Of a stretch of 64,000 nucleotides of DNA, positions 109-5,633 are shown one piece after another. The position numbers and the translations under genes are program-made. The stretch is from a virus. The stretch lies in the IMG/VR virus record IMGVR_UViG_3300036398_002324; one strand, 5' to 3'. Below the pieces are notes generated by a model that was given only the letters and a program-made list of their open reading frames with translations, made no database searches and was not told the origin of the DNA. Positions within the stretch are counted from its first letter, which is position 1, and each line of letters opens with the position of its first letter.

Positions 109-1113
109 ATGTCAATTTTCGACAACAAAATTAATAAAAGTGTCGCAGAAGCAGTAATGAAAGTAGTGCAACAAGAGGAGTTGAAAGGTAATCAGCATAA
201 GATTGATGCCAACAAAAATGGCAAAGTTGATGCTCATGACTTCAAACTTCTTCGTGCTAAAAAAGATATGAAGAAAGAAGAAGTTGAACAACTAGATGAA
301 GTTGGTGATACACCAGCAGGCAGAAAAGCATTGGGCAGTTATGTGCAGAAAGCATTACACGACAAAGATCGTCAGAAAGGTCTGCGTAAAGCAACATCAC
401 GCCTGTACAAAGACAATTACTATGGCAAGAAAACAAATGAAGATGTTGAAGTGTCCGAGCAAGAACAATTGAATGAAGCATTTCCAACCGTTGCTGATGC
501 AAAGAAGCGTATGGATGCTGGCAAAACAGCAACAGGTTCCGTAACAAAGACTGCTACAGGTCTTGTTCATAAGCGTGATTACAAAGATGATGATAATGAT
601 TCTGATGATAAGCCAAAGAAGTCGGCAGGTTATGGCGCTCGTCAGAACTACAAGCGTTCAACACGTGTCAATGAAGAACTTTCATTCACAGAAATGCTCG
701 AACTGTACAACGAGCATGGCATCAAAGTCTTAGCACCAATTGAAAAAGAAGAAATGAACATTGATGGTACGACAATTGAAGTTATTGATGCTGACAAAGT
801 AAATGGCTTTGTTGAAACTACAGTTGAAGAAGTTACCAACGATGAATTTACAAAAGAGTTTGAGGACCAAAAAGCAAGCTTTGAAGGTAAAAAGAAACAA
901 CCTAAAGTTGCTGCAGGTAAAACAACTGGCGTAAAGGCAATGCCAGAAGAAGTTGAACTCGATGAGCGTACATTGACATCTGGTGAATCTAAAAAGAAAG
1001 AAGAGTATGTCAAAGGTATGAAGAAAGGTCTTTCTGGCTTCAAACAGCGTTATGGTGAACGTGCTAAATCGGTAATGTATGCAACTGCAACCAAGATGGC
1101 CAAAAAGGACTAA
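109..1113 (+). CDS. Putative internal head (core) polyprotein
   Basis: SD GGAG; charged modules separated by EEVEQLDE, EQLNE and EEVELDE motifs resembling T4 gp21 cleavage sites. Confidence 0.55.
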   Translation: MSIFDNKINKSVAEAVMKVVQQEELKGNQHKIDANKNGKVDAHDFKLLRAKKDMKKEEVEQLDEVGDTPAGRKALGSYVQKALHDKDRQKGLRKATSRLYKDNYYGKKTNEDVEVSEQEQLNEAFPTVADAKKRMDAGKTATGSVTKTATGLVHKRDYKDDDNDSDDKPKKSAGYGARQNYKRSTRVNEELSFTEMLELYNEHGIKVLAPIEKEEMNIDGTTIEVIDADKVNGFVETTVEEVTNDEFTKEFEDQKASFEGKKKQPKVAAGKTTGVKAMPEEVELDERTLTSGESKKKEEYVKGMKKGLSGFKQRYGERAKSVMYATATKMAKKD

Positions 1114-1115
1114 TT

Positions 1116-2927
1116 ATGTCTGATAAACCAAAAAAGTATTTCTCAGCCATGCGTGAAGGTGTGGCTGAGAAGTTGGCTCAAAGACATCAAGAACTTCGTA
1201 AGAAGAGTGGTTTGCCACATCCTGATTATTATAAAGAGTTAGGTAAATCTTATGATATTAAAGATGACAGTGAACGTATGGCACACCAATCTTCTCTGAA
1301 GAAGAAGTATGGCGTCAAAGAAGAAGTGGAGCCATTGGATGAATTGAGTACAGACACTTTGAAATCTTATATTGGCAAATCAACTAAAGATATGTTAGAG
1401 CGTAAGCGTCAGCAAAAAATTGAAACTGATCGTGCCAATCTTCGAACTAAACACGAAATGGCAAAAAAACGTGGACTTGAGGCTGCTGATAGAATAGGTG
1501 CTAGTGCGATAAAACGTGCCGCTGGTATTGGAAAAGCATCCATGAAAATTGCAATGAAGAAAGAAGAAGTTGAAATGCTTGATGAGATGCCAGAGTCAAG
1601 CATGAAAACACGTGATGTTCATGCACACCTAAAAAAAGCTGGTTGGGCATTGAAACGCACTGGCGGCGGTCACGATGTTTACGCACATCCAAAATCAAAA
1701 GAACACATTGCTGTTCCTCGTCATAGACAATTGAAAGCACCACTCATTCGTGGTATTCTCAAAGCTTCAAGAGTTTCTGAAGAAGCTGAGATTGATGAGC
1801 AATTACAACAGAAAGGAAAATTTGTGTCTGGTCCAGTTAAAAAACCATATAAATCTCCTACGGTAGTAACACCGATAAGAGAAGCAAAAGATCCACGCGA
1901 GTATGATTATGAAGGTGACATGGCAATGTCACAACTTCGGTCATTGATGTTCAATGCACAAGACATGATGGATTTGATGGAAGAAAATACGAATCTACCA
2001 GAGTGGGTGCAATCAAAGATTACACTTGCTGAAGATTATATTTCAACAGCAGCAAACTATCTGCGTGGTGAGTTGAATGAAGCAGTAAGTCCTGCACAAC
2101 AAGCGGCAATTGCTGTTAGTATGAAAGAAAAAGGCATCAAACCTAAAGTAGGAAAACAACCAAAGGGTGATTATGAGCGTAAAGTGGACAAATACTTGAA
2201 GAAGAAATATCAAAAAGAAGATGTTGAACTTCAAGAGGGTCGTCCATCACAACGCCATCCATTAGAGGGTCATGAGTATCATAAGAAATCGAATGAAGCA
2301 TTAGTTCACATTGCTAAAGATGCACATGCTGCTGCCGAAGCAATGAAAGGTCACAATACACAAGCAGAAAACAAATATCGTGACCAAGCAAATGATTCCG
2401 CAACAGTGCGCTACTTCCGTCAAAAAAGTGGTATGCCTGACTGGTACAAAAAGAAATATGGTCATGTCAAAGAAGAAACCGAGATTCAAGAATCTGATGC
2501 AGCTTGGGCAGCTTCTCAAGAAAAGCGTAAAGAAAAAAAGTTGACACCTAATGATCAAGATAAACTTGGACAAGTCCGTGCTTTAATGGCTAAAGAAAAA
2601 GAAGCTAAGGCAAAGATGAAGAAAGAAGATGTTGAACTTGAAGAAGAAAACAAGCCAACTAATCCAGAACTTTGGTCTAAAGCAAAATCAATGGCTAAAT
2701 CCAAGTTTGACGTATATCCATCAGCATATGCAAATGGCTGGGCAGCTAAATGGTACAAATCTAAAGGAGGTGGATGGAAGTCTGTTTCTGAGGAAACTGA
2801 GAAGCCAGAATCACGCAAAGCAAGAATCGTGAGAGACCTCGTGAAAGATAAAAAGAATGCACAAGAAGAGGCATCGGACAAGTTTCAAAAAGATCCCGAA
2901 ATCTCAAGTGAAATTCAAAAGAACTAA
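1116..2927 (+). CDS. Putative internal head polyprotein with an embedded HicA-like domain
   Basis: Repeated (K)EEVExLxE linkers; module MKTRDVHAHLKKAGWALKRTGGGHDVYAHP...IAVPRH is HicA-like. Confidence 0.6.
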   Translation: MSDKPKKYFSAMREGVAEKLAQRHQELRKKSGLPHPDYYKELGKSYDIKDDSERMAHQSSLKKKYGVKEEVEPLDELSTDTLKSYIGKSTKDMLERKRQQKIETDRANLRTKHEMAKKRGLEAADRIGASAIKRAAGIGKASMKIAMKKEEVEMLDEMPESSMKTRDVHAHLKKAGWALKRTGGGHDVYAHPKSKEHIAVPRHRQLKAPLIRGILKASRVSEEAEIDEQLQQKGKFVSGPVKKPYKSPTVVTPIREAKDPREYDYEGDMAMSQLRSLMFNAQDMMDLMEENTNLPEWVQSKITLAEDYISTAANYLRGELNEAVSPAQQAAIAVSMKEKGIKPKVGKQPKGDYERKVDKYLKKKYQKEDVELQEGRPSQRHPLEGHEYHKKSNEALVHIAKDAHAAAEAMKGHNTQAENKYRDQANDSATVRYFRQKSGMPDWYKKKYGHVKEETEIQESDAAWAASQEKRKEKKLTPNDQDKLGQVRALMAKEKEAKAKMKKEDVELEEENKPTNPELWSKAKSMAKSKFDVYPSAYANGWAAKWYKSKGGGWKSVSEETEKPESRKARIVRDLVKDKKNAQEEASDKFQKDPEISSEIQKN

Positions 2928-2930
2928 TAA

Positions 2931-2938
2931 CATAAATA
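2931..2938 (+). promoter_or_regulatory. T4-type late promoter (CATAAATA)
   Basis: Matches TATAAATA-type consensus, intergenic, ahead of a structural gene. Confidence 0.6.
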
Positions 2939-2968
2939 AACAATCAAATAGATTTATAGGAGAAAAAC

Positions 2969-3547
2969 ATGTCACTTTGGGGAAATTTAGACGCATCTAA
3001 CAATGCTCCAAACTTTTCGGGTCTGACTGGCTATGACACATCAACTACTGGCGAAAGCTTGGCTAACTCACAGCCATCTTCAGTATTTGGTAACACATAC
3101 ATGAGCGCCACAAGAACTAATGTTGAGTTTGGCGTATTCGGTATTGATACAACAGAAGAAGGACTTATTACAGATGGCTCACCAACACACGCTGGTTGGG
3201 TAGCACGTACTAAGGGTTCGGGTCCTGTTGATTCAGTAACAGCAAACACTGACGCCGTTGGTCCAGCAGCATCAGCATGTACGTACACACTAGTTATTTC
3301 TGGTGGTGGTACAAACAATACTTCAGCGCAAGTTTCTGTAACAACGGCTGCTACTGGTAGAGTCACAGCAGTTACAGTTACAAACGGTGGATTGTATACT
3401 GGCACACCAACAGCAAACACATTTGGTAACACAGCATTCACTTTCACGATGGGCGGCCGTAACGGTCGTACCACATTTGAAACCATTGTTGCTATGGGTT
3501 CAATGGAAGGCGATGCATCCGATGACGCAATTGCGCCTGACGCTTAA
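2969..3547 (+). CDS. Virion structural protein
   Basis: MSLWG start, HAGWV motif, Thr/Gly-rich beta composition, late promoter and strong SD. Confidence 0.55.
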   Translation: MSLWGNLDASNNAPNFSGLTGYDTSTTGESLANSQPSSVFGNTYMSATRTNVEFGVFGIDTTEEGLITDGSPTHAGWVARTKGSGPVDSVTANTDAVGPAASACTYTLVISGGGTNNTSAQVSVTTAATGRVTAVTVTNGGLYTGTPTANTFGNTAFTFTMGGRNGRTTFETIVAMGSMEGDASDDAIAPDA

Positions 3548-3556
3548 ATGAAAGTG

Positions 3557-3578
3557 GCGGCTAACTTCGGTTAGCCGC
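3557..3578 (+). terminator. UUCG hairpin / intrinsic terminator
   Basis: GCGGCTAAC-TTCG-GTTAGCCGC. Confidence 0.7.
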
Positions 3579-3585
3579 ATTTATT

Positions 3586-3978
3586 ATGTCATTTGAAAAT
3601 CTAACCGAAGATAATATGATGTTGTATGCAGCAAAAGCTTACGATAAGCCTAACTGTATTATGAGTGAATTCGATGAAGATATGAAGAAATTAAATTATC
3701 TTAAACGATTGTTTCATCGATATCATAAAAGAGAAGAAATTCGTGAACGGCTGATATTAAATCATATAGTAACACTTAACAATCTGTTTGGTCCAGAAGC
3801 GACTAGCAGATTGTTATTTTTTAGTATGAGTGAAAAAGATTACTCTGCACTTAAAACATTTCTATTATTTCTTAATATTATGCCGAATCGTGTAAAAGGA
3901 ATAAAAGGCAAAGATATTATTTCATCTAACATTAATATTGATATGAAAATTGCTGAAGAATTGAGAAAACTAAAATAA
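3586..3978 (+). CDS. Conserved T4-like phage hypothetical protein
   Basis: Motifs YAAKAYDKP and ERLILNHI typical of T4-like aquatic phages. Confidence 0.6.
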   Translation: MSFENLTEDNMMLYAAKAYDKPNCIMSEFDEDMKKLNYLKRLFHRYHKREEIRERLILNHIVTLNNLFGPEATSRLLFFSMSEKDYSALKTFLLFLNIMPNRVKGIKGKDIISSNINIDMKIAEELRKLK

Positions 3979-3986
3979 ATACGACT

Positions 3987-4238
3987 ATGAAAAATAACGA
4001 ATCTAAATTTTGTCCAGCTTGCAACAAAATGGAAAAACGCAACGAGTGTGGCTTTGGACCAGAATACTGGGACAAAAATGCAAAGAGTGTTAAAGAAGAA
4101 GATGCACCAGTAAACGCCGTAGGCGGTGGTGCCGTAGCAGGATTAGGTGTCGGTCCACAGGGCGAACCTGGCGTGAAGAAACGCAAGGCTGCAACATTCA
4201 TTTCTTTTATAAAGAGAAAATCAAATGTGGCTTCTTAG
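3987..4238 (+). CDS. Hypothetical protein (CxxC; EEDAPVNAVGGG motif)
   Basis: ORF track; in operon context. Confidence 0.5.
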   Translation: MKNNESKFCPACNKMEKRNECGFGPEYWDKNAKSVKEEDAPVNAVGGGAVAGLGVGPQGEPGVKKRKAATFISFIKRKSNVAS

Positions 4239-4740
4239 TTTTTTGCCTACAGGATTTCTAGAATTTATCATCAATGCTGTACTTATCGGTAGCATTGTTG
4301 GTATTGTACTAGGTTTTTTCGGTAGCAAATTACCAGTTGTTGGTACACATGCGACTATCATCAAATATGCTTCAATTGTTTTATTCTGTATCGGTCTATA
4401 CTGGAAAGGTGGTTTCAGTGTAGAAAAAGAATGGCGTGAAAGAGTAGAAGCAATGGAAATTAAAGTAAAACAAGCAGAAGCACAAGCAAAAGAAGCGAAT
4501 GAACAAATCAATACAAGAGTTGTTGAGAGAACAAAAGTTGTTCGTGAAAAAGGAAAAACACAGATTGAATATATCAACCGATTGGTTGAAGGTAAAACAG
4601 TTGAGATTGTAAAAGATATGAGCGCAGAAGAACGAGCCGTGTTTGAAAAGAAACAAAAAGAATTACAAGATGCTCTTAAAAGTTGTCCTGTACCTAGAAT
4701 CATCATAGAAGAACATAACAAAGCGGCAGAGATAAAATGA
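4225..4740 (+). CDS. Putative i-spanin (Rz-like)
   Basis: N-terminal TM helices plus periplasmic coiled coil; next to lipoprotein and endolysin. Confidence 0.6.
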   Translation: MWLLSFLPTGFLEFIINAVLIGSIVGIVLGFFGSKLPVVGTHATIIKYASIVLFCIGLYWKGGFSVEKEWRERVEAMEIKVKQAEAQAKEANEQINTRVVERTKVVREKGKTQIEYINRLVEGKTVEIVKDMSAEERAVFEKKQKELQDALKSCPVPRIIIEEHNKAAEIK

Positions 4741-5003
4741 AATTATATGCACTTTTATTGATTGCGCTATTGACTGGTTGTTCAACAACAGTTCCTGTAG
4801 TTGCAAAATTTCCTGATGCACCTAAAGCATTAACAGAAAACTGTCCACCTTTGAAAAAAGTTGAGAACGACCCAACATCTATCGTAGATTTACATAAAAC
4901 TGTAGTTGAAAATTACACACTGTATCATGAGTGTGCTATCAAAGTTGAAGAATGGAATGAGTGGCATGTGAAACAAAAAAAGATTTTTGAAAGTGTAAAA
5001 TAA
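4737..5003 (+). CDS. Putative o-spanin lipoprotein (Rz1-like)
   Basis: Lipobox LLTGC, Pro-rich segment, overlaps i-spanin stop. Confidence 0.65.
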   Translation: MKLYALLLIALLTGCSTTVPVVAKFPDAPKALTENCPPLKKVENDPTSIVDLHKTVVENYTLYHECAIKVEEWNEWHVKQKKIFESVK

Positions 5004-5015
5004 TAAAGGAAAAGT

Positions 5016-5633
5016 ATGGAACTGACAAAACAACAATTAAAAGAATTGCTTCCAAAAAATCCCTATGTTGACCAGTGGCATAAAGCATTAAGTCAATTAC
5101 TGCCGGATTACGAAATCAATACTCCACAAAGAATCGCAGCGTTCATTGCACAATGCGCTCACGAGTCTGGTGGTTTTATTTTTCTTACAGAGAATTTAAA
5201 CTACAAAGCAGAAAGCCTAATGAAAGTATTCCCAAAATACTTCAAAGATATGGCAACTGCAAAAGCATACGAAAAGAAACCAGAAAAGATTGCAAACAAA
5301 ATCTATGCTGATCGCATGGGTAATGGCAACGAAGCATCGGGCGATGGTTACAAATACCGTGGTCGTGGTCTAATTCAACTTACTGGTAAAACAAATTATA
5401 CATGGTTTGCTGCATCATTAGAAATTACACCAGAAGAAGCAGCAGAGTATACACAAACCTTTGAAGGTGCAGCACAATCAGCATGTTGGTTCTGGGAAAC
5501 AAACAAACTGAACCAATATGCAGATACGGGCGATATTCTTACAATGACAAAGAGAATCAATGGTGGTACGATAGGACTTGAAGACCGCAAGAAACATTAT
5601 GCACATGCACTTCACGTTCTAGGAGTTCACTGA
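5016..5633 (+). CDS. Endolysin, glycoside hydrolase family 19
   Basis: FIAQCAHESGGF, YRGRGLIQLTG, TKRINGG motifs. Confidence 0.9.
   Translation: MELTKQQLKELLPKNPYVDQWHKALSQLLPDYEINTPQRIAAFIAQCAHESGGFIFLTENLNYKAESLMKVFPKYFKDMATAKAYEKKPEKIANKIYADRMGNGNEASGDGYKYRGRGLIQLTGKTNYTWFAASLEITPEEAAEYTQTFEGAAQSACWFWETNKLNQYADTGDILTMTKRINGGTIGLEDRKKHYAHALHVLGVH

What the first reader, a model, noticed from the sequence alone, without database searches (positions are those of the whole stretch)
1116..2927. Modular virion polyprotein carrying a HicA-like RNase between protease-site linkers
Seen: about ten unrelated short modules are separated by recurring acidic linkers (VKEEVEPLDE, KKEEVEMLDE, VSEEAEIDE, KEDVELQE, VKEETEIQE, KKEDVELEEE). 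One module (about 1602-1775) is HicA-like (GW.LKR.GGHD.Y.HP...IAVPRH...ILK) and no HicB is visible in the window. Known: T4 prohead protease gp21 cuts after (I/L)xE in core and internal proteins. Inference: the protein is packaged and cut into a cocktail of small effectors injected with the DNA, including an mRNA interferase kept inactive until processing.
Basis: partly seen in the sequence, partly recalled or inferred. Interest (0 to 1): 0.8.

Follow-up and report, generated by a model that had tools for sequence, protein, structure and literature searches.

The report
Phage head-cargo polyprotein carrying HicA
An uncultured T4-like lake phage strings a HicA RNase toxin and several small unknown modules into one protein, joined by linkers that look like cut sites of the T4-type head protease, so the pieces are probably loaded into the capsid and cut apart there, though no cutting or packaging has been measured.

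Summary
ORF 1116-2927 (603 aa) carries six acidic linkers of the form E-[ED]-[VAT]-E-(x)-[LI]-x-E. Shuffles of the protein give about 0.003. The motif occurs elsewhere in the window only in the ORF just upstream (109-1113).

Residues 158-228 are a true HicA module. It scores above the Pfam cut-off, its model matches seven solved HicA toxins first, and the Gly-x-His needed for toxicity is invariant. No HicB gene was found next to it or in five related phage records.

All five relatives, including a complete 172-kb genome collinear with the window, encode a T4 gp21-type prohead protease, which cuts after L/I-x-E. In relatives the same modules follow near-copies of the T4 capsid-targeting peptide (MKSFKAFIAE against T4 MKTYQEFIAE) at the same junctions.

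The most likely reading is a late-made cargo polyprotein that the head protease cuts. Packaging, cleavage, injection, RNase activity and an inactive precursor are all unmeasured. This ORF has no N-terminal targeting peptide of its own.

The scan has reached the same reading on other genomes. I found no published description.

- **Class:** new variant of a known kind (T4 internal proteins).
- **Interest:** 0.63.

The parts
1116..2927 (+). 603-aa cargo polyprotein gene (stop included)
   Evidence: ORF listing. More than 3221 homologues of 418-652 aa in metagenomes. 423 related loci in IMG/VR.
1116..1313 (+). Module M1 (aa 1-66), helical. It is present in nearly all homologues and evolves fast (dN/dS about 0.38). 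It is not a T4-type targeting peptide.
1314..1343 (+). Linker 1, VKEEVEPLDE, ending in L-D-E at aa 76
   Evidence: pLDDT is below 50 across residues 69-88.
1344..1556 (+). Module M2 (aa 77-147), one long helix. It is rare among homologues (2 of 120).
1557..1586 (+). Linker 2, KKEEVEMLDE, ending in L-D-E at aa 157. It lies directly before the Met that begins the HicA module.
   Evidence: The junction [LI]-[DE]-E|M-[PA]-x-x-x-M is nearly invariant across about 100 HicA-bearing architectures.
1587..1772 (+). HicA module (aa 158-219). The Pfam core is aa 166-217. Gly184-x-His186 (His codon 1671-1673) corresponds to the Gly22/His24 needed for toxicity in Burkholderia pseudomallei HicA.
   Evidence: - Pfam 38.3 bits.
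- The AlphaFold model is alpha-beta-beta-beta-alpha, mean pLDDT 71.
- The Foldseek top 7 hits are all HicA toxins: 6G26, 1WHZ, 4P78, 4C26, 5YRZ, 6HPB.
- G19 and H29 of the module (Gly176 and His186 of the protein) are invariant; G27 (Gly184) is nearly so.
- dN/dS is 0.11.
- Residue roles come from PMC11594946.
1773..1799 (+). Linker 3, VSEEAEIDE, ending in I-D-E at aa 228
   Evidence: The next [LIMV]xE ends 19 residues after the HicA P-x-H in 79 of 82 unique module copies.
1800..2213 (+). Module M4 (aa 229-366). Its conserved core M4a is aa 254-322, also found at the C-terminus of a 179-aa protein of cyanophage S-WAM2 that starts MKTFKQLREE. M4b is optional.
   Evidence: dN/dS is 0.065.
2214..2237 (+). 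Linker 4, KEDVELQE, ending in L-Q-E at aa 374
   Evidence: In L069 the next module (GRPSQ...) follows MKTFKSFIVE at exactly this junction.
2238..2465 (+). Module M5 (aa 375-450), a helical bundle with His-rich conserved residues. Function unknown.
   Evidence: dN/dS is 0.073.
2466..2492 (+). Linker 5, VKEETEIQE, ending in I-Q-E at aa 459
2493..2618 (+). Module M6 (aa 460-501). It is optional and changes position among homologues.
2619..2645 (+). Linker 6, KKEDVELEE, ending in L-E-E at aa 510
2646..2924 (+). Module M7 (aa 511-603). It has a DUF5872-like core at aa 512-557 and a fast-evolving basic tail.
   Evidence: PHROG 27331. ESM Atlas neighbours carry DUF5872 and DUF6321. dN/dS is 0.087 for the core and 0.27 for the tail.
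109..1113 (+). Sister polyprotein (334 aa) just upstream, with the same linker grammar. Its stop lies 3 nt before the start of ORF 1116.
2932..2939 (+). ATAAATA late-promoter-like motif just after the stop, before the next gene (2969). It marks the end of the cargo operon.
   Evidence: The same NTAAATA motif sits 20-30 nt before the scaffold, capsid and tail-tube genes of relative G002.

Best explanation
ORF 1116-2927 is a late-expressed head-cargo polyprotein of a T4-like freshwater phage. It works as a polyprotein version of the T4 internal proteins.

Proposed mechanism:
1. It is made together with other cargo proteins and a virion protein from one late operon.
2. It is incorporated into the prohead core.
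3. The gp21-type prohead protease cuts it after the Glu of each L/I-x-E linker. This releases about seven small modules.
4. One module is a complete HicA endoribonuclease of native size, beginning at its own Met.
5. The pieces stay in the DNA-filled head and most likely enter the host with the DNA. There an antitoxin-less HicA would cleave host RNA at the start of infection.

Shown here:
- the linker grammar and its statistics;
- HicA family membership, fold and key residues;
- strong purifying selection on the modules;
- module shuffling across thousands of homologues;
- the T4-type protease and T4-type targeting peptides in relatives.

Inferred, not shown: packaging, cleavage, ejection, RNase activity, and how this particular ORF, which has no N-terminal targeting peptide, is loaded.
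For: **1. Linker motif.** It occurs 6 times in this ORF (shuffle mean 0.003), 2 times in the neighbouring ORF, and nowhere else in the window.

**2. Linker logo.** An anchor that leaves P3 and P2 free gave 477 unique sites. P3 is L 59%, I 23%, V 7%; P2 is variable; P1' is variable (P1 Glu is fixed by the anchor). This fits the published gp21 specificity L/I-x-E (PMC9026906). The Leu codons differ between linkers (CTA, CTC, TTG, CTT), so selection acts on the protein.

**3. Protease.** All five related records, two complete with terminal repeats, encode Peptidase_S77 at 118-125 bits.
- The window is collinear with complete relative G002 at roughly 66-94% (mostly 70-85%) nucleotide identity.
- G002's protease is 39% identical to T4 gp21 over 147 aa, with GEL-x-HP and GVSSR conserved.
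- It sits in the T4 gene order portal, gp67-like, gp68-like, protease, scaffold, capsid.

**4. Whole-genome census of G002.** The linker motif occurs in the cargo cluster and in the head-gene cluster beside the protease (portal C-terminus, gp67-like 68-aa ORF, 153-aa basic ORF). Two other isolated hits look like chance.

**5. Targeting peptides.** T4 IPII and IPIII start MKTYQEFIAE.
- Cargo ORFs in relatives start MKSFKAFIAE, MKTFKSFIVE, MKSFTQFINE or MKSFKDYMTE.
- Only 3 of 1011 ORFs in G002 fit this grammar, and 2 of them head the cargo operon.
- In L024 and L026 the HicA module follows such a peptide.
- In L069 module M5 follows it at the very junction that follows linker 4 here.

**6. Predicted structure.** pLDDT falls below 50 at or immediately beside all six linkers, between folded islands.

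**7. Selection.** dN/dS is 0.05-0.11 for HicA, M4a, M5 and M7.

**8. Operon.** In G002 five abutting genes follow a tandem CTAAATA-CTAAATA motif. The same motif type precedes the scaffold, capsid and tail-tube genes. The operon includes PHROG 1645, annotated as a virion structural protein in cyanophages and in phage HMO-2011.

**9. HicA.**
Against: - There are no proteomic, biochemical or expression data of any kind.
- The ORF begins MSDKPKKYFSAMRE, not with a T4-type targeting peptide. No ORF in the window has one.
- The linkers lack the aromatic residues at positions 4 and 7 that target T4 IPIII.
- The protease was found in relatives, not in this genome. No whole genome is held for the window, and exact-match scans returned nothing from viral contigs and only short contigs from metagenomes.
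- The conserved EEVE part of the linker is not explained by the L/I-x-E rule. The predicted capsid-protein site in the relative (ILQE|T) has no such acidic run.
- Several module families, such as DUF6321, also occur in podoviruses, which were not checked here for a gp21-type protease. The modules therefore need not depend on this protease.
- Apart from HicA no module has a known function, so calling them 'effectors' is an assumption.
Confidence: 0.62

Rival explanations
1. The protein is a prohead core or scaffold-type filler rather than an effector cocktail. It is loaded and cut like T4 gp22, gp67 and gp68. The fragments are then either expelled from the head or remain as basic DNA-condensing peptides. 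The HicA fold serves as a nucleic-acid-binding (dsRBD-like) domain, not as a toxin.
For: - The same motif occurs in the gp67-like and other small head-cluster proteins beside the protease.
- The modules are mostly Lys-rich and helical.
- T4 core proteins are cut at many sites and their fragments mostly leave the head (PMC9026906).
- HicA has a dsRBD-type fold (PMC11594946).
Against: - dN/dS of 0.05-0.11 on several unrelated modules argues for specific functions.
- The HicA Gly-x-His needed for toxicity is invariant across the clade and shared with free-standing toxins.
- Module content is optional and shuffled, and HicA is absent from G004 and G005. This fits accessory cargo better than an assembly part.
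Confidence: 0.15
2. The protein is not packaged. It is a cytoplasmic late (or leaky) multidomain protein whose acidic segments are simply flexible linkers. It is either uncut or cut by some other protease, and the resemblance to gp21 sites is incidental.
For: - This ORF has no N-terminal targeting peptide.
- Acidic, low-complexity linkers are common in multidomain proteins.
- No experimental data exist.
Against: - The linker keeps L/I/V at P3 in 89% of 477 sites and always ends in Glu, while P2 and P1' vary freely. This is a protease-site signature rather than a spacer signature.
- The motif is otherwise confined to the head-gene cluster in a complete relative.
- The same modules follow T4-like targeting peptides at identical junctions.
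- The gene is co-operonic with a protein annotated as a virion structural protein.
Confidence: 0.1
3. The linkers exist mainly as recombination joints. Short conserved DNA stretches let modules be swapped in frame between polyprotein genes, with or without proteolysis.
For: - Three linkers in the window share ATG AAG AAA GAA GA(A/T) GTT GAA.
- Modules are gained, lost and moved precisely at linkers.
Against: - The shared DNA is only about 20 nt.
- The functionally telling residues, P3 Leu/Ile and P1 Glu, are kept through synonymous and conservative changes.
- This idea is compatible with the main explanation rather than an alternative to it.
Confidence: 0.08

Closest known systems
Phage T4 internal proteins IPI, IPII and IPIII (and Alt): capsid-targeting sequence plus gp21 processing
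   Same: - A T4-type prohead protease is present in relatives.
- The cut-site grammar is L/I-x-E.
- Relatives' cargo genes carry near-copies of the 10-residue T4 targeting peptide.
- The cargo is diverse, fast-shuffling and mostly basic.
- The locus lies near the endolysin gene, as T4 ipII and ipIII lie beside gene e.
   Different: - Many cargoes are strung into one polypeptide with internal cut sites, instead of one gene per cargo.
- The linker carries an extra conserved acidic run (EEVE).
- This ORF has no N-terminal targeting peptide.
- The cargo includes a toxin-type RNase.
- There is no sequence homology to IPI, IPII or IPIII beyond the leader.
Polyvalent proteins of phages and conjugative elements (Iyer et al. 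2017, PMC5512222)
   Same: Multidomain proteins encoded beside virion genes, predicted to be packaged, delivered with the DNA, and sometimes processed. RNase domains are among the cargo.
   Different: - Those proteins are built from large enzymatic domains.
- They often carry their own metallopeptidase for processing, and have no repeated prohead-protease linkers.
- HicA is not mentioned in that paper.
- Here only one of about seven modules has a recognisable function.
Ejection and inner-body proteins of giant phages phiKZ, 201phi2-1 and SPN3US
   Same: Head-internal proteins cut at several sites after Glu by a diverged gp21 homologue. Redundant sites lie in propeptide regions (PMC9026906).
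   Different: - Their motif is S/A-x-E.
- The cleavages remove propeptides rather than separating a string of unrelated small modules.
- No homology was seen.
Type II HicAB toxin-antitoxin systems
   Same: The same fold, family and toxicity-critical Gly-x-His. The module has the size of a free HicA and begins at the equivalent Met.
   Different: - No HicB partner was found.
- The toxin is embedded in a 603-aa protein.
- It forms its own clade that occurs at any position in more than 100 different long viral proteins.

Membership tests
HicA toxin (PF07927) | Profile match above the curated cut-off | tested here: met
   38.3 bits against a cut-off of 27, aa 166-217. 35-52 bits in relatives.
HicA toxin (PF07927) | Alpha-beta-beta-beta-alpha dsRBD-like fold | tested here: met
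   AlphaFold model H8-17, E21-26, E29-33, E40-44, H51-66, mean pLDDT 71. The Foldseek top 7 hits are all solved HicA toxins, with TM 0.58-0.73 by query and rmsd 1.2-3.1 A.
HicA toxin (PF07927) | Gly-x-His required for toxicity and RNase activity (Gly22/His24 of BpsHicA, His28 of YpHicA3) | tested here: met
   Gly184-Gly-His186. The His is invariant and the Gly at least 90% conserved in 41 aligned sequences that include free-standing HicAs. Both are invariant in 19 phage modules. Residue roles come from PMC11594946.
HicA toxin (PF07927) | Small single-domain protein with an adjacent HicB antitoxin gene | tested here: not met
   The module is embedded in a 603-aa ORF. The neighbours scanned against Pfam have no HicB match. 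No credible PF15919 or PF05534 match was found in five related records; the one 15-bit hit has 3 stops inside.
HicA toxin (PF07927) | Ribosome-independent RNase activity and growth arrest on expression | not testable with these tools
   Needs expression and an RNase assay.
T4-type internal (capsid-targeted, gp21-processed) proteins | N-terminal capsid-targeting peptide of the MKTYQEFIAE type | tested here: not met
   This ORF starts MSDKPKKYFSAMRE, and no window ORF fits the grammar. The feature is met by neighbouring cargo ORFs and by HicA-bearing paralogues in relatives.
T4-type internal (capsid-targeted, gp21-processed) proteins | L/I-x-E sites positioned to release the mature protein | tested here: met
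   Six sites at module borders. Logo from 477 sites. The junctions are identical to those behind targeting peptides. This is sequence-level evidence only.
T4-type internal (capsid-targeted, gp21-processed) proteins | gp21-family prohead protease encoded by the same phage | tested here: inconclusive
   Present in 5 of 5 related records, including the collinear complete genome G002. The window's own genome is not held and the window does not contain the head genes.
T4-type internal (capsid-targeted, gp21-processed) proteins | Physical presence in the head, cleavage during maturation, ejection with the DNA | not testable with these tools
   Needs virion proteomics and infection assays.
Polyvalent proteins (Iyer et al. 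2017) | Several conflict-related enzymatic or binding domains in one polypeptide, encoded with virion genes | tested here: inconclusive
   The virion-gene context is met. Only HicA is a recognisable conflict domain; the other modules are DUF-like or unknown.
Polyvalent proteins (Iyer et al. 2017) | Own processing peptidase domain (often a metallopeptidase) | tested here: not met
   No peptidase domain in the ORF by Pfam or PHROGs.

The most novel reading that the evidence does not exclude
Abundant T4-like aquatic phages use a general cargo grammar: a T4-type targeting peptide plus a reusable acidic protease-cut linker. This lets any small gene be captured in frame into capsid-delivered polyproteins. 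One widespread cargo is an antitoxin-less HicA RNase, released at its native N-terminus inside the head and injected to hit host RNA before any phage gene is expressed. This would be the first RNase toxin used as a virion-borne weapon, and a natural multi-protein delivery system.
Probability: 0.3. Interest if true: 0.85.

Novelty: new variant of a known kind. Interest (0 to 1): 0.63.

Why it matters
T4's internal proteins are the textbook case of proteins delivered with phage DNA, yet they are known from a handful of coliphages.

If this reading holds, the same loading and cutting machinery is used by very common lake and ocean phages, including relatives of cultured cyanophages. It would carry a much larger, shuffled repertoire packed as polyproteins.

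That would have several consequences:
- It gives a testable function to several viral domains of unknown function (DUF6321, DUF5872 and others).
- It shows a toxin-antitoxin toxin re-used by a lytic phage without its antitoxin.
- It offers a natural design for loading several proteins into a capsid.

Cultured cyanophage S-RIM8 carries a homologous polyprotein, so the idea can be tested directly.

Tried and rejected
- **Linkers as fossil N-terminal leaders.** I asked whether stand-alone genes start MKKEEVE.L.E. No ORF in 88 loci has the acidic motif within its first 8 residues. Stand-alone cargo genes use the MK[ST]F..F[IL].E leader instead. Rejected.
- **Canonical T4 late promoter.** TATAAATA is not enriched in the window: 3 matches against 4.6 expected, none near the gene. 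The relaxed NTAAATA form fits the head genes and the cargo operon in G002.
- **Finding the window's own genome.**
  - No genome is held.
  - An exact 44-mer found nothing in viral contigs.
  - It found only four short contigs in metagenomes.
Context came from the search for related loci and the genome search instead.
- **Cultured phages.** A megablast of the first 6 kb against cultured phages gave no match. tblastn found only module-sized hits in cyanophages.
- **Functions for other modules.**
  - Pfam and PHROGs gave nothing beyond HicA and unnamed PHROG families.
  - The ESM Atlas pointed only to viral DUFs.
  - A BFVD fold search of the full model gave only uncharacterised viral proteins and HicA toxins.
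- **Capsid-protein cut site.** The alignment with T4 gp23 gave a plausible but unaligned site (ILQE|T), which is only weak support.
- **Literature.** No paper in the library joins HicA with the prohead protease, the capsid-targeting sequence with cyanophages, or mentions DUF6321.
Full report
**Observation**

The 603-aa ORF at 1116-2927 is real.

The pattern E[ED][VAT]E.{0,1}[LI].E occurs six times. In 5000 shuffles of the protein the mean was 0.003 and the maximum 1. A looser version of the pattern, run over all six frames of the 64-kb window, hits only these six sites and two more in the ORF directly upstream, 109-1113. That ORF stops 3 nt before this gene starts.

Residues 166-217 match Pfam HicA_toxin at 38.3 bits against a cut-off of 27. 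They also match PHROG 353 'toxin'.

The linkers bound seven segments, not ten. An AlphaFold model built on 40 homologues shows folded islands at about 20-68, 90-140, 160-220, 385-445 and 512-555. pLDDT falls below 50 at or immediately beside every one of the six linkers.

**What kind of phage this is**

- The window encodes an endolysin, spanin-like proteins, a primase, ribonucleotide reductase and PstS.
- It is collinear, at roughly 66-94% (mostly 70-85%) nucleotide identity, with a complete 172-kb IMG/VR genome with terminal repeats, called G002 here.
- The capsid protein of G002 is about 64% identical to those of T4-like cyanophages of the family Kyanoviridae.
- All five related records that I searched encode a T4 gp21-family prohead protease (Peptidase_S77, 118-125 bits).
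- G002's protease is 39% identical to T4 gp21 over 147 residues, and the GEL-x-HP and GVSSR motifs are kept.
- It lies in the T4 gene order: portal, gp67-like, gp68-like, protease, scaffold, capsid.
- The window's own genome is not held, so the protease is inferred for this phage rather than seen.

**Why the linkers look like protease sites**

A review of T4 head assembly (PMC9026906) states three things:
- gp21 cuts after Glu in the short motif L/I-x-E.
- The first 10 residues of IPIII form the capsid-targeting sequence.
- Residues 4 and 7 of that sequence matter for targeting, and residues 8 and 10 for processing.

I collected 477 unique linker contexts from homologues, using an anchor that leaves P3 and P2 free. 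P3 is L, I or V in 89% of them. P2 and P1' vary, and P1 is Glu by construction of the anchor.

Within the window the Leu codons differ between linkers, so the constraint acts on the protein.

In the complete relative G002 the motif is found in two places: the cargo gene cluster, and the head-gene cluster beside the protease (portal C-terminus, a gp67-like 68-aa ORF and a 153-aa very basic ORF). Two other isolated hits look like chance.

**The link to the T4 targeting peptide**

T4 IPII and IPIII both begin MKTYQEFIAE.

In the related loci, small plus-strand ORFs next to the polyprotein begin MKSFKAFIAE, MKSFKSFIAE, MKTFKSFIVE, MKSFTQFINE or MKSFKDYMTE. The 900-aa enzyme fusion that heads the cluster begins MKFRDFLRE.

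In G002 only 3 of 1011 ORFs fit this grammar, and two of them are the first two genes of the cargo operon.

Two junctions are telling:
- In L069 a 343-aa ORF reads MKTFKSFIVE followed by GRPSQ.... This is module M5 of the window protein, which here follows linker 4 (KEDVELQE) at exactly the same residue.
- In L024 and L026 the HicA module follows such a leader plus a linker in small ORFs of 175 and 199 aa.

So the Glu that ends a linker is equivalent to the Glu that ends a targeting peptide.

**The gene family**

- More than 3221 homologues of 418-652 aa exist in metagenomes, and there are 423 related loci in IMG/VR.
- Among the best 120, module M2 is rare, M6 is optional and moves, and M4b is optional.
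- Cutting 103 polyproteins from the loci at their linkers gives 398 modules in 65 clusters, 46 of them singletons.
- dN/dS against 13 homologues is 0.11 for HicA, 0.065 for M4a, 0.073 for M5 and 0.087 for M7. It is 0.27-0.38 for M1 and the C-terminal tail. dS is near saturation, so these values are approximate.
- The modules are therefore functional proteins, not spacers.

**The HicA module**

- A model built on 41 sequences has the alpha-beta-beta-beta-alpha fold, mean pLDDT 71.
- Its seven best PDB matches are all HicA toxins: 6G26, 1WHZ, 4P78, 4C26, 5YRZ, 6HPB.
- Gly184-x-His186 aligns with the Gly22/His24 pair required for toxicity in Burkholderia pseudomallei HicA and with the catalytic His28 of Yersinia HicA3 (PMC11594946). 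It is conserved in all phage modules and in the free-standing HicAs aligned with them.
- An exhaustive search of 1.84 billion representatives found 273 relatives. Of the best 149, 110 are long proteins of 120-1097 aa with the module at any position, and 16 of those start with a T4-like leader.
- The upstream junction [LI]-[DE]-E|M-[PA]-x-x-x-M is nearly invariant.
- Free-standing HicAs begin five residues downstream of the cut, at the module's second Met (Met163, the M-K-x-R motif). The module's own first residue is also a Met, and two related proteins (P0147, P0192) start at it. Cleavage would therefore release a near-native-size HicA.
- No credible HicB (PF15919, PF05534) was found in the five related records.
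- HicA occurs once in G001, G002 and G003 and is absent from G004 and G005, so it is optional cargo.

**Expression context**

In G002 five abutting genes follow a tandem CTAAATA-CTAAATA motif. They are the 913-aa leader-bearing enzyme fusion, a 215-aa leader-bearing polyprotein, PHROG 1645, the ORF-109 homologue and the HicA polyprotein. The next NTAAATA motif comes only after the polyprotein's stop, as it does in the window at 2932.

The same motif type precedes the scaffold, capsid, tail-tube and gp67-like genes at 20-30 nt.

PHROG 1645 is annotated as a virion structural protein in cyanophages and in phage HMO-2011. I read the cluster as a late operon. This rests on sequence only.

**What remains unshown**

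- Packaging, cleavage, ejection and RNase activity are all unmeasured.
- The idea that the precursor is inactive has no evidence for or against it.
- This ORF has no N-terminal targeting peptide, and the linkers lack the aromatic residues that target T4 IPIII. How it would enter the prohead is unexplained.
- The conserved EEVE part of the linker is also unexplained. The predicted capsid-protein site in the relative (ILQE|T) has no such run.

**Comparison with what is known**

The closest system is the T4 internal proteins with their targeting peptide and gp21 processing. The polyprotein format, the extended acidic linker and the HicA cargo are the differences.

The polyvalent proteins of Iyer et al. 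(PMC5512222) are a conceptual relative, but they use large enzyme domains and their own peptidases, and HicA is not among them.

Giant-phage ejection proteins are cut at several sites by diverged gp21 homologues, at S/A-x-E.

I found no paper in the library that describes this arrangement.

Earlier follow-ups in this scan reached the same reading on other genomes. That is a repeat of the idea, not independent evidence.

Cultured cyanophage S-RIM8 carries a 591-aa protein built from the same module families, with looser linkers, in the same genomic position. This makes a direct test possible.

**Verdict**

I put the head-cargo polyprotein explanation at about 0.62. It is a new variant of a known kind.

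Noticed in passing
window 109-1113: A sister polyprotein (334 aa) with the same linkers (KKEEVEQLDE, EQLNE, PEEVELDE) and an EF-hand or dockerin-like loop, DANKNGKVDAHDF. The Pfam hits are weak and below cut-off (E 0.0025-0.06). Its C-terminal module matches PHROG 12788.
   Followed up: partly
L003:4314-7013 (relative); equivalent G002 2282-5023: A 900-913-aa protein heads the cargo operon. It starts with the T4-like leader MKFRDFLRE and fuses a cytidylyltransferase-like domain, a Zeta-toxin/AAA_33 kinase-like domain and PHROG 727 modules. It is a candidate capsid-loaded enzyme.
   Followed up: partly
L101:14595-15815 (G002 166595-167818): The third and only other ORF in the complete relative with a T4-like leader (MKFMDFITE). 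It is a 407-aa DUF6267 protein, far from the cargo operon.
   Followed up: partly
L108:1995-3770 (Synechococcus phage S-RIM8, cultured): A 591-aa 'hypothetical protein' just upstream of the PHROG 1645 gene. It is a polyprotein of the same module families (M4a-like, DUF5872-like, the CW.GYK module, DUF6321) with looser linkers such as EEFELEE and EELEWLTE. It is a tractable experimental system.
   Followed up: partly
L084:4762-5223 (G002, between portal and protease): A 153-aa ORF with an acidic N-terminal part containing EEIEVDE and an extremely Arg/Lys-rich C-terminal half. It may be a head-core protein that could bind the acidic linkers.
   Followed up: no
window 4225-5633: A lysis cassette lies about 1.3 kb downstream of the polyprotein: a spanin-like ORF (4225-4740), an Rz1/LysC-like lipoprotein (4737-5003) and an endolysin (5016-5633). 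In T4, ipII and ipIII also lie beside the endolysin gene e. The parallel may be coincidence.
   Followed up: no
window 268-288, 1554-1574, 2616-2636: Three linkers share the DNA ATG AAG AAA GAA GA(A/T) GTT GAA. This microhomology could help in-frame module exchange.
   Followed up: partly
L089-L092 (metagenome contigs): An exact 44-nt match to the start of the gene occurs in four short contigs from different metagenome records. The same phage population has therefore been sampled repeatedly.
   Followed up: no
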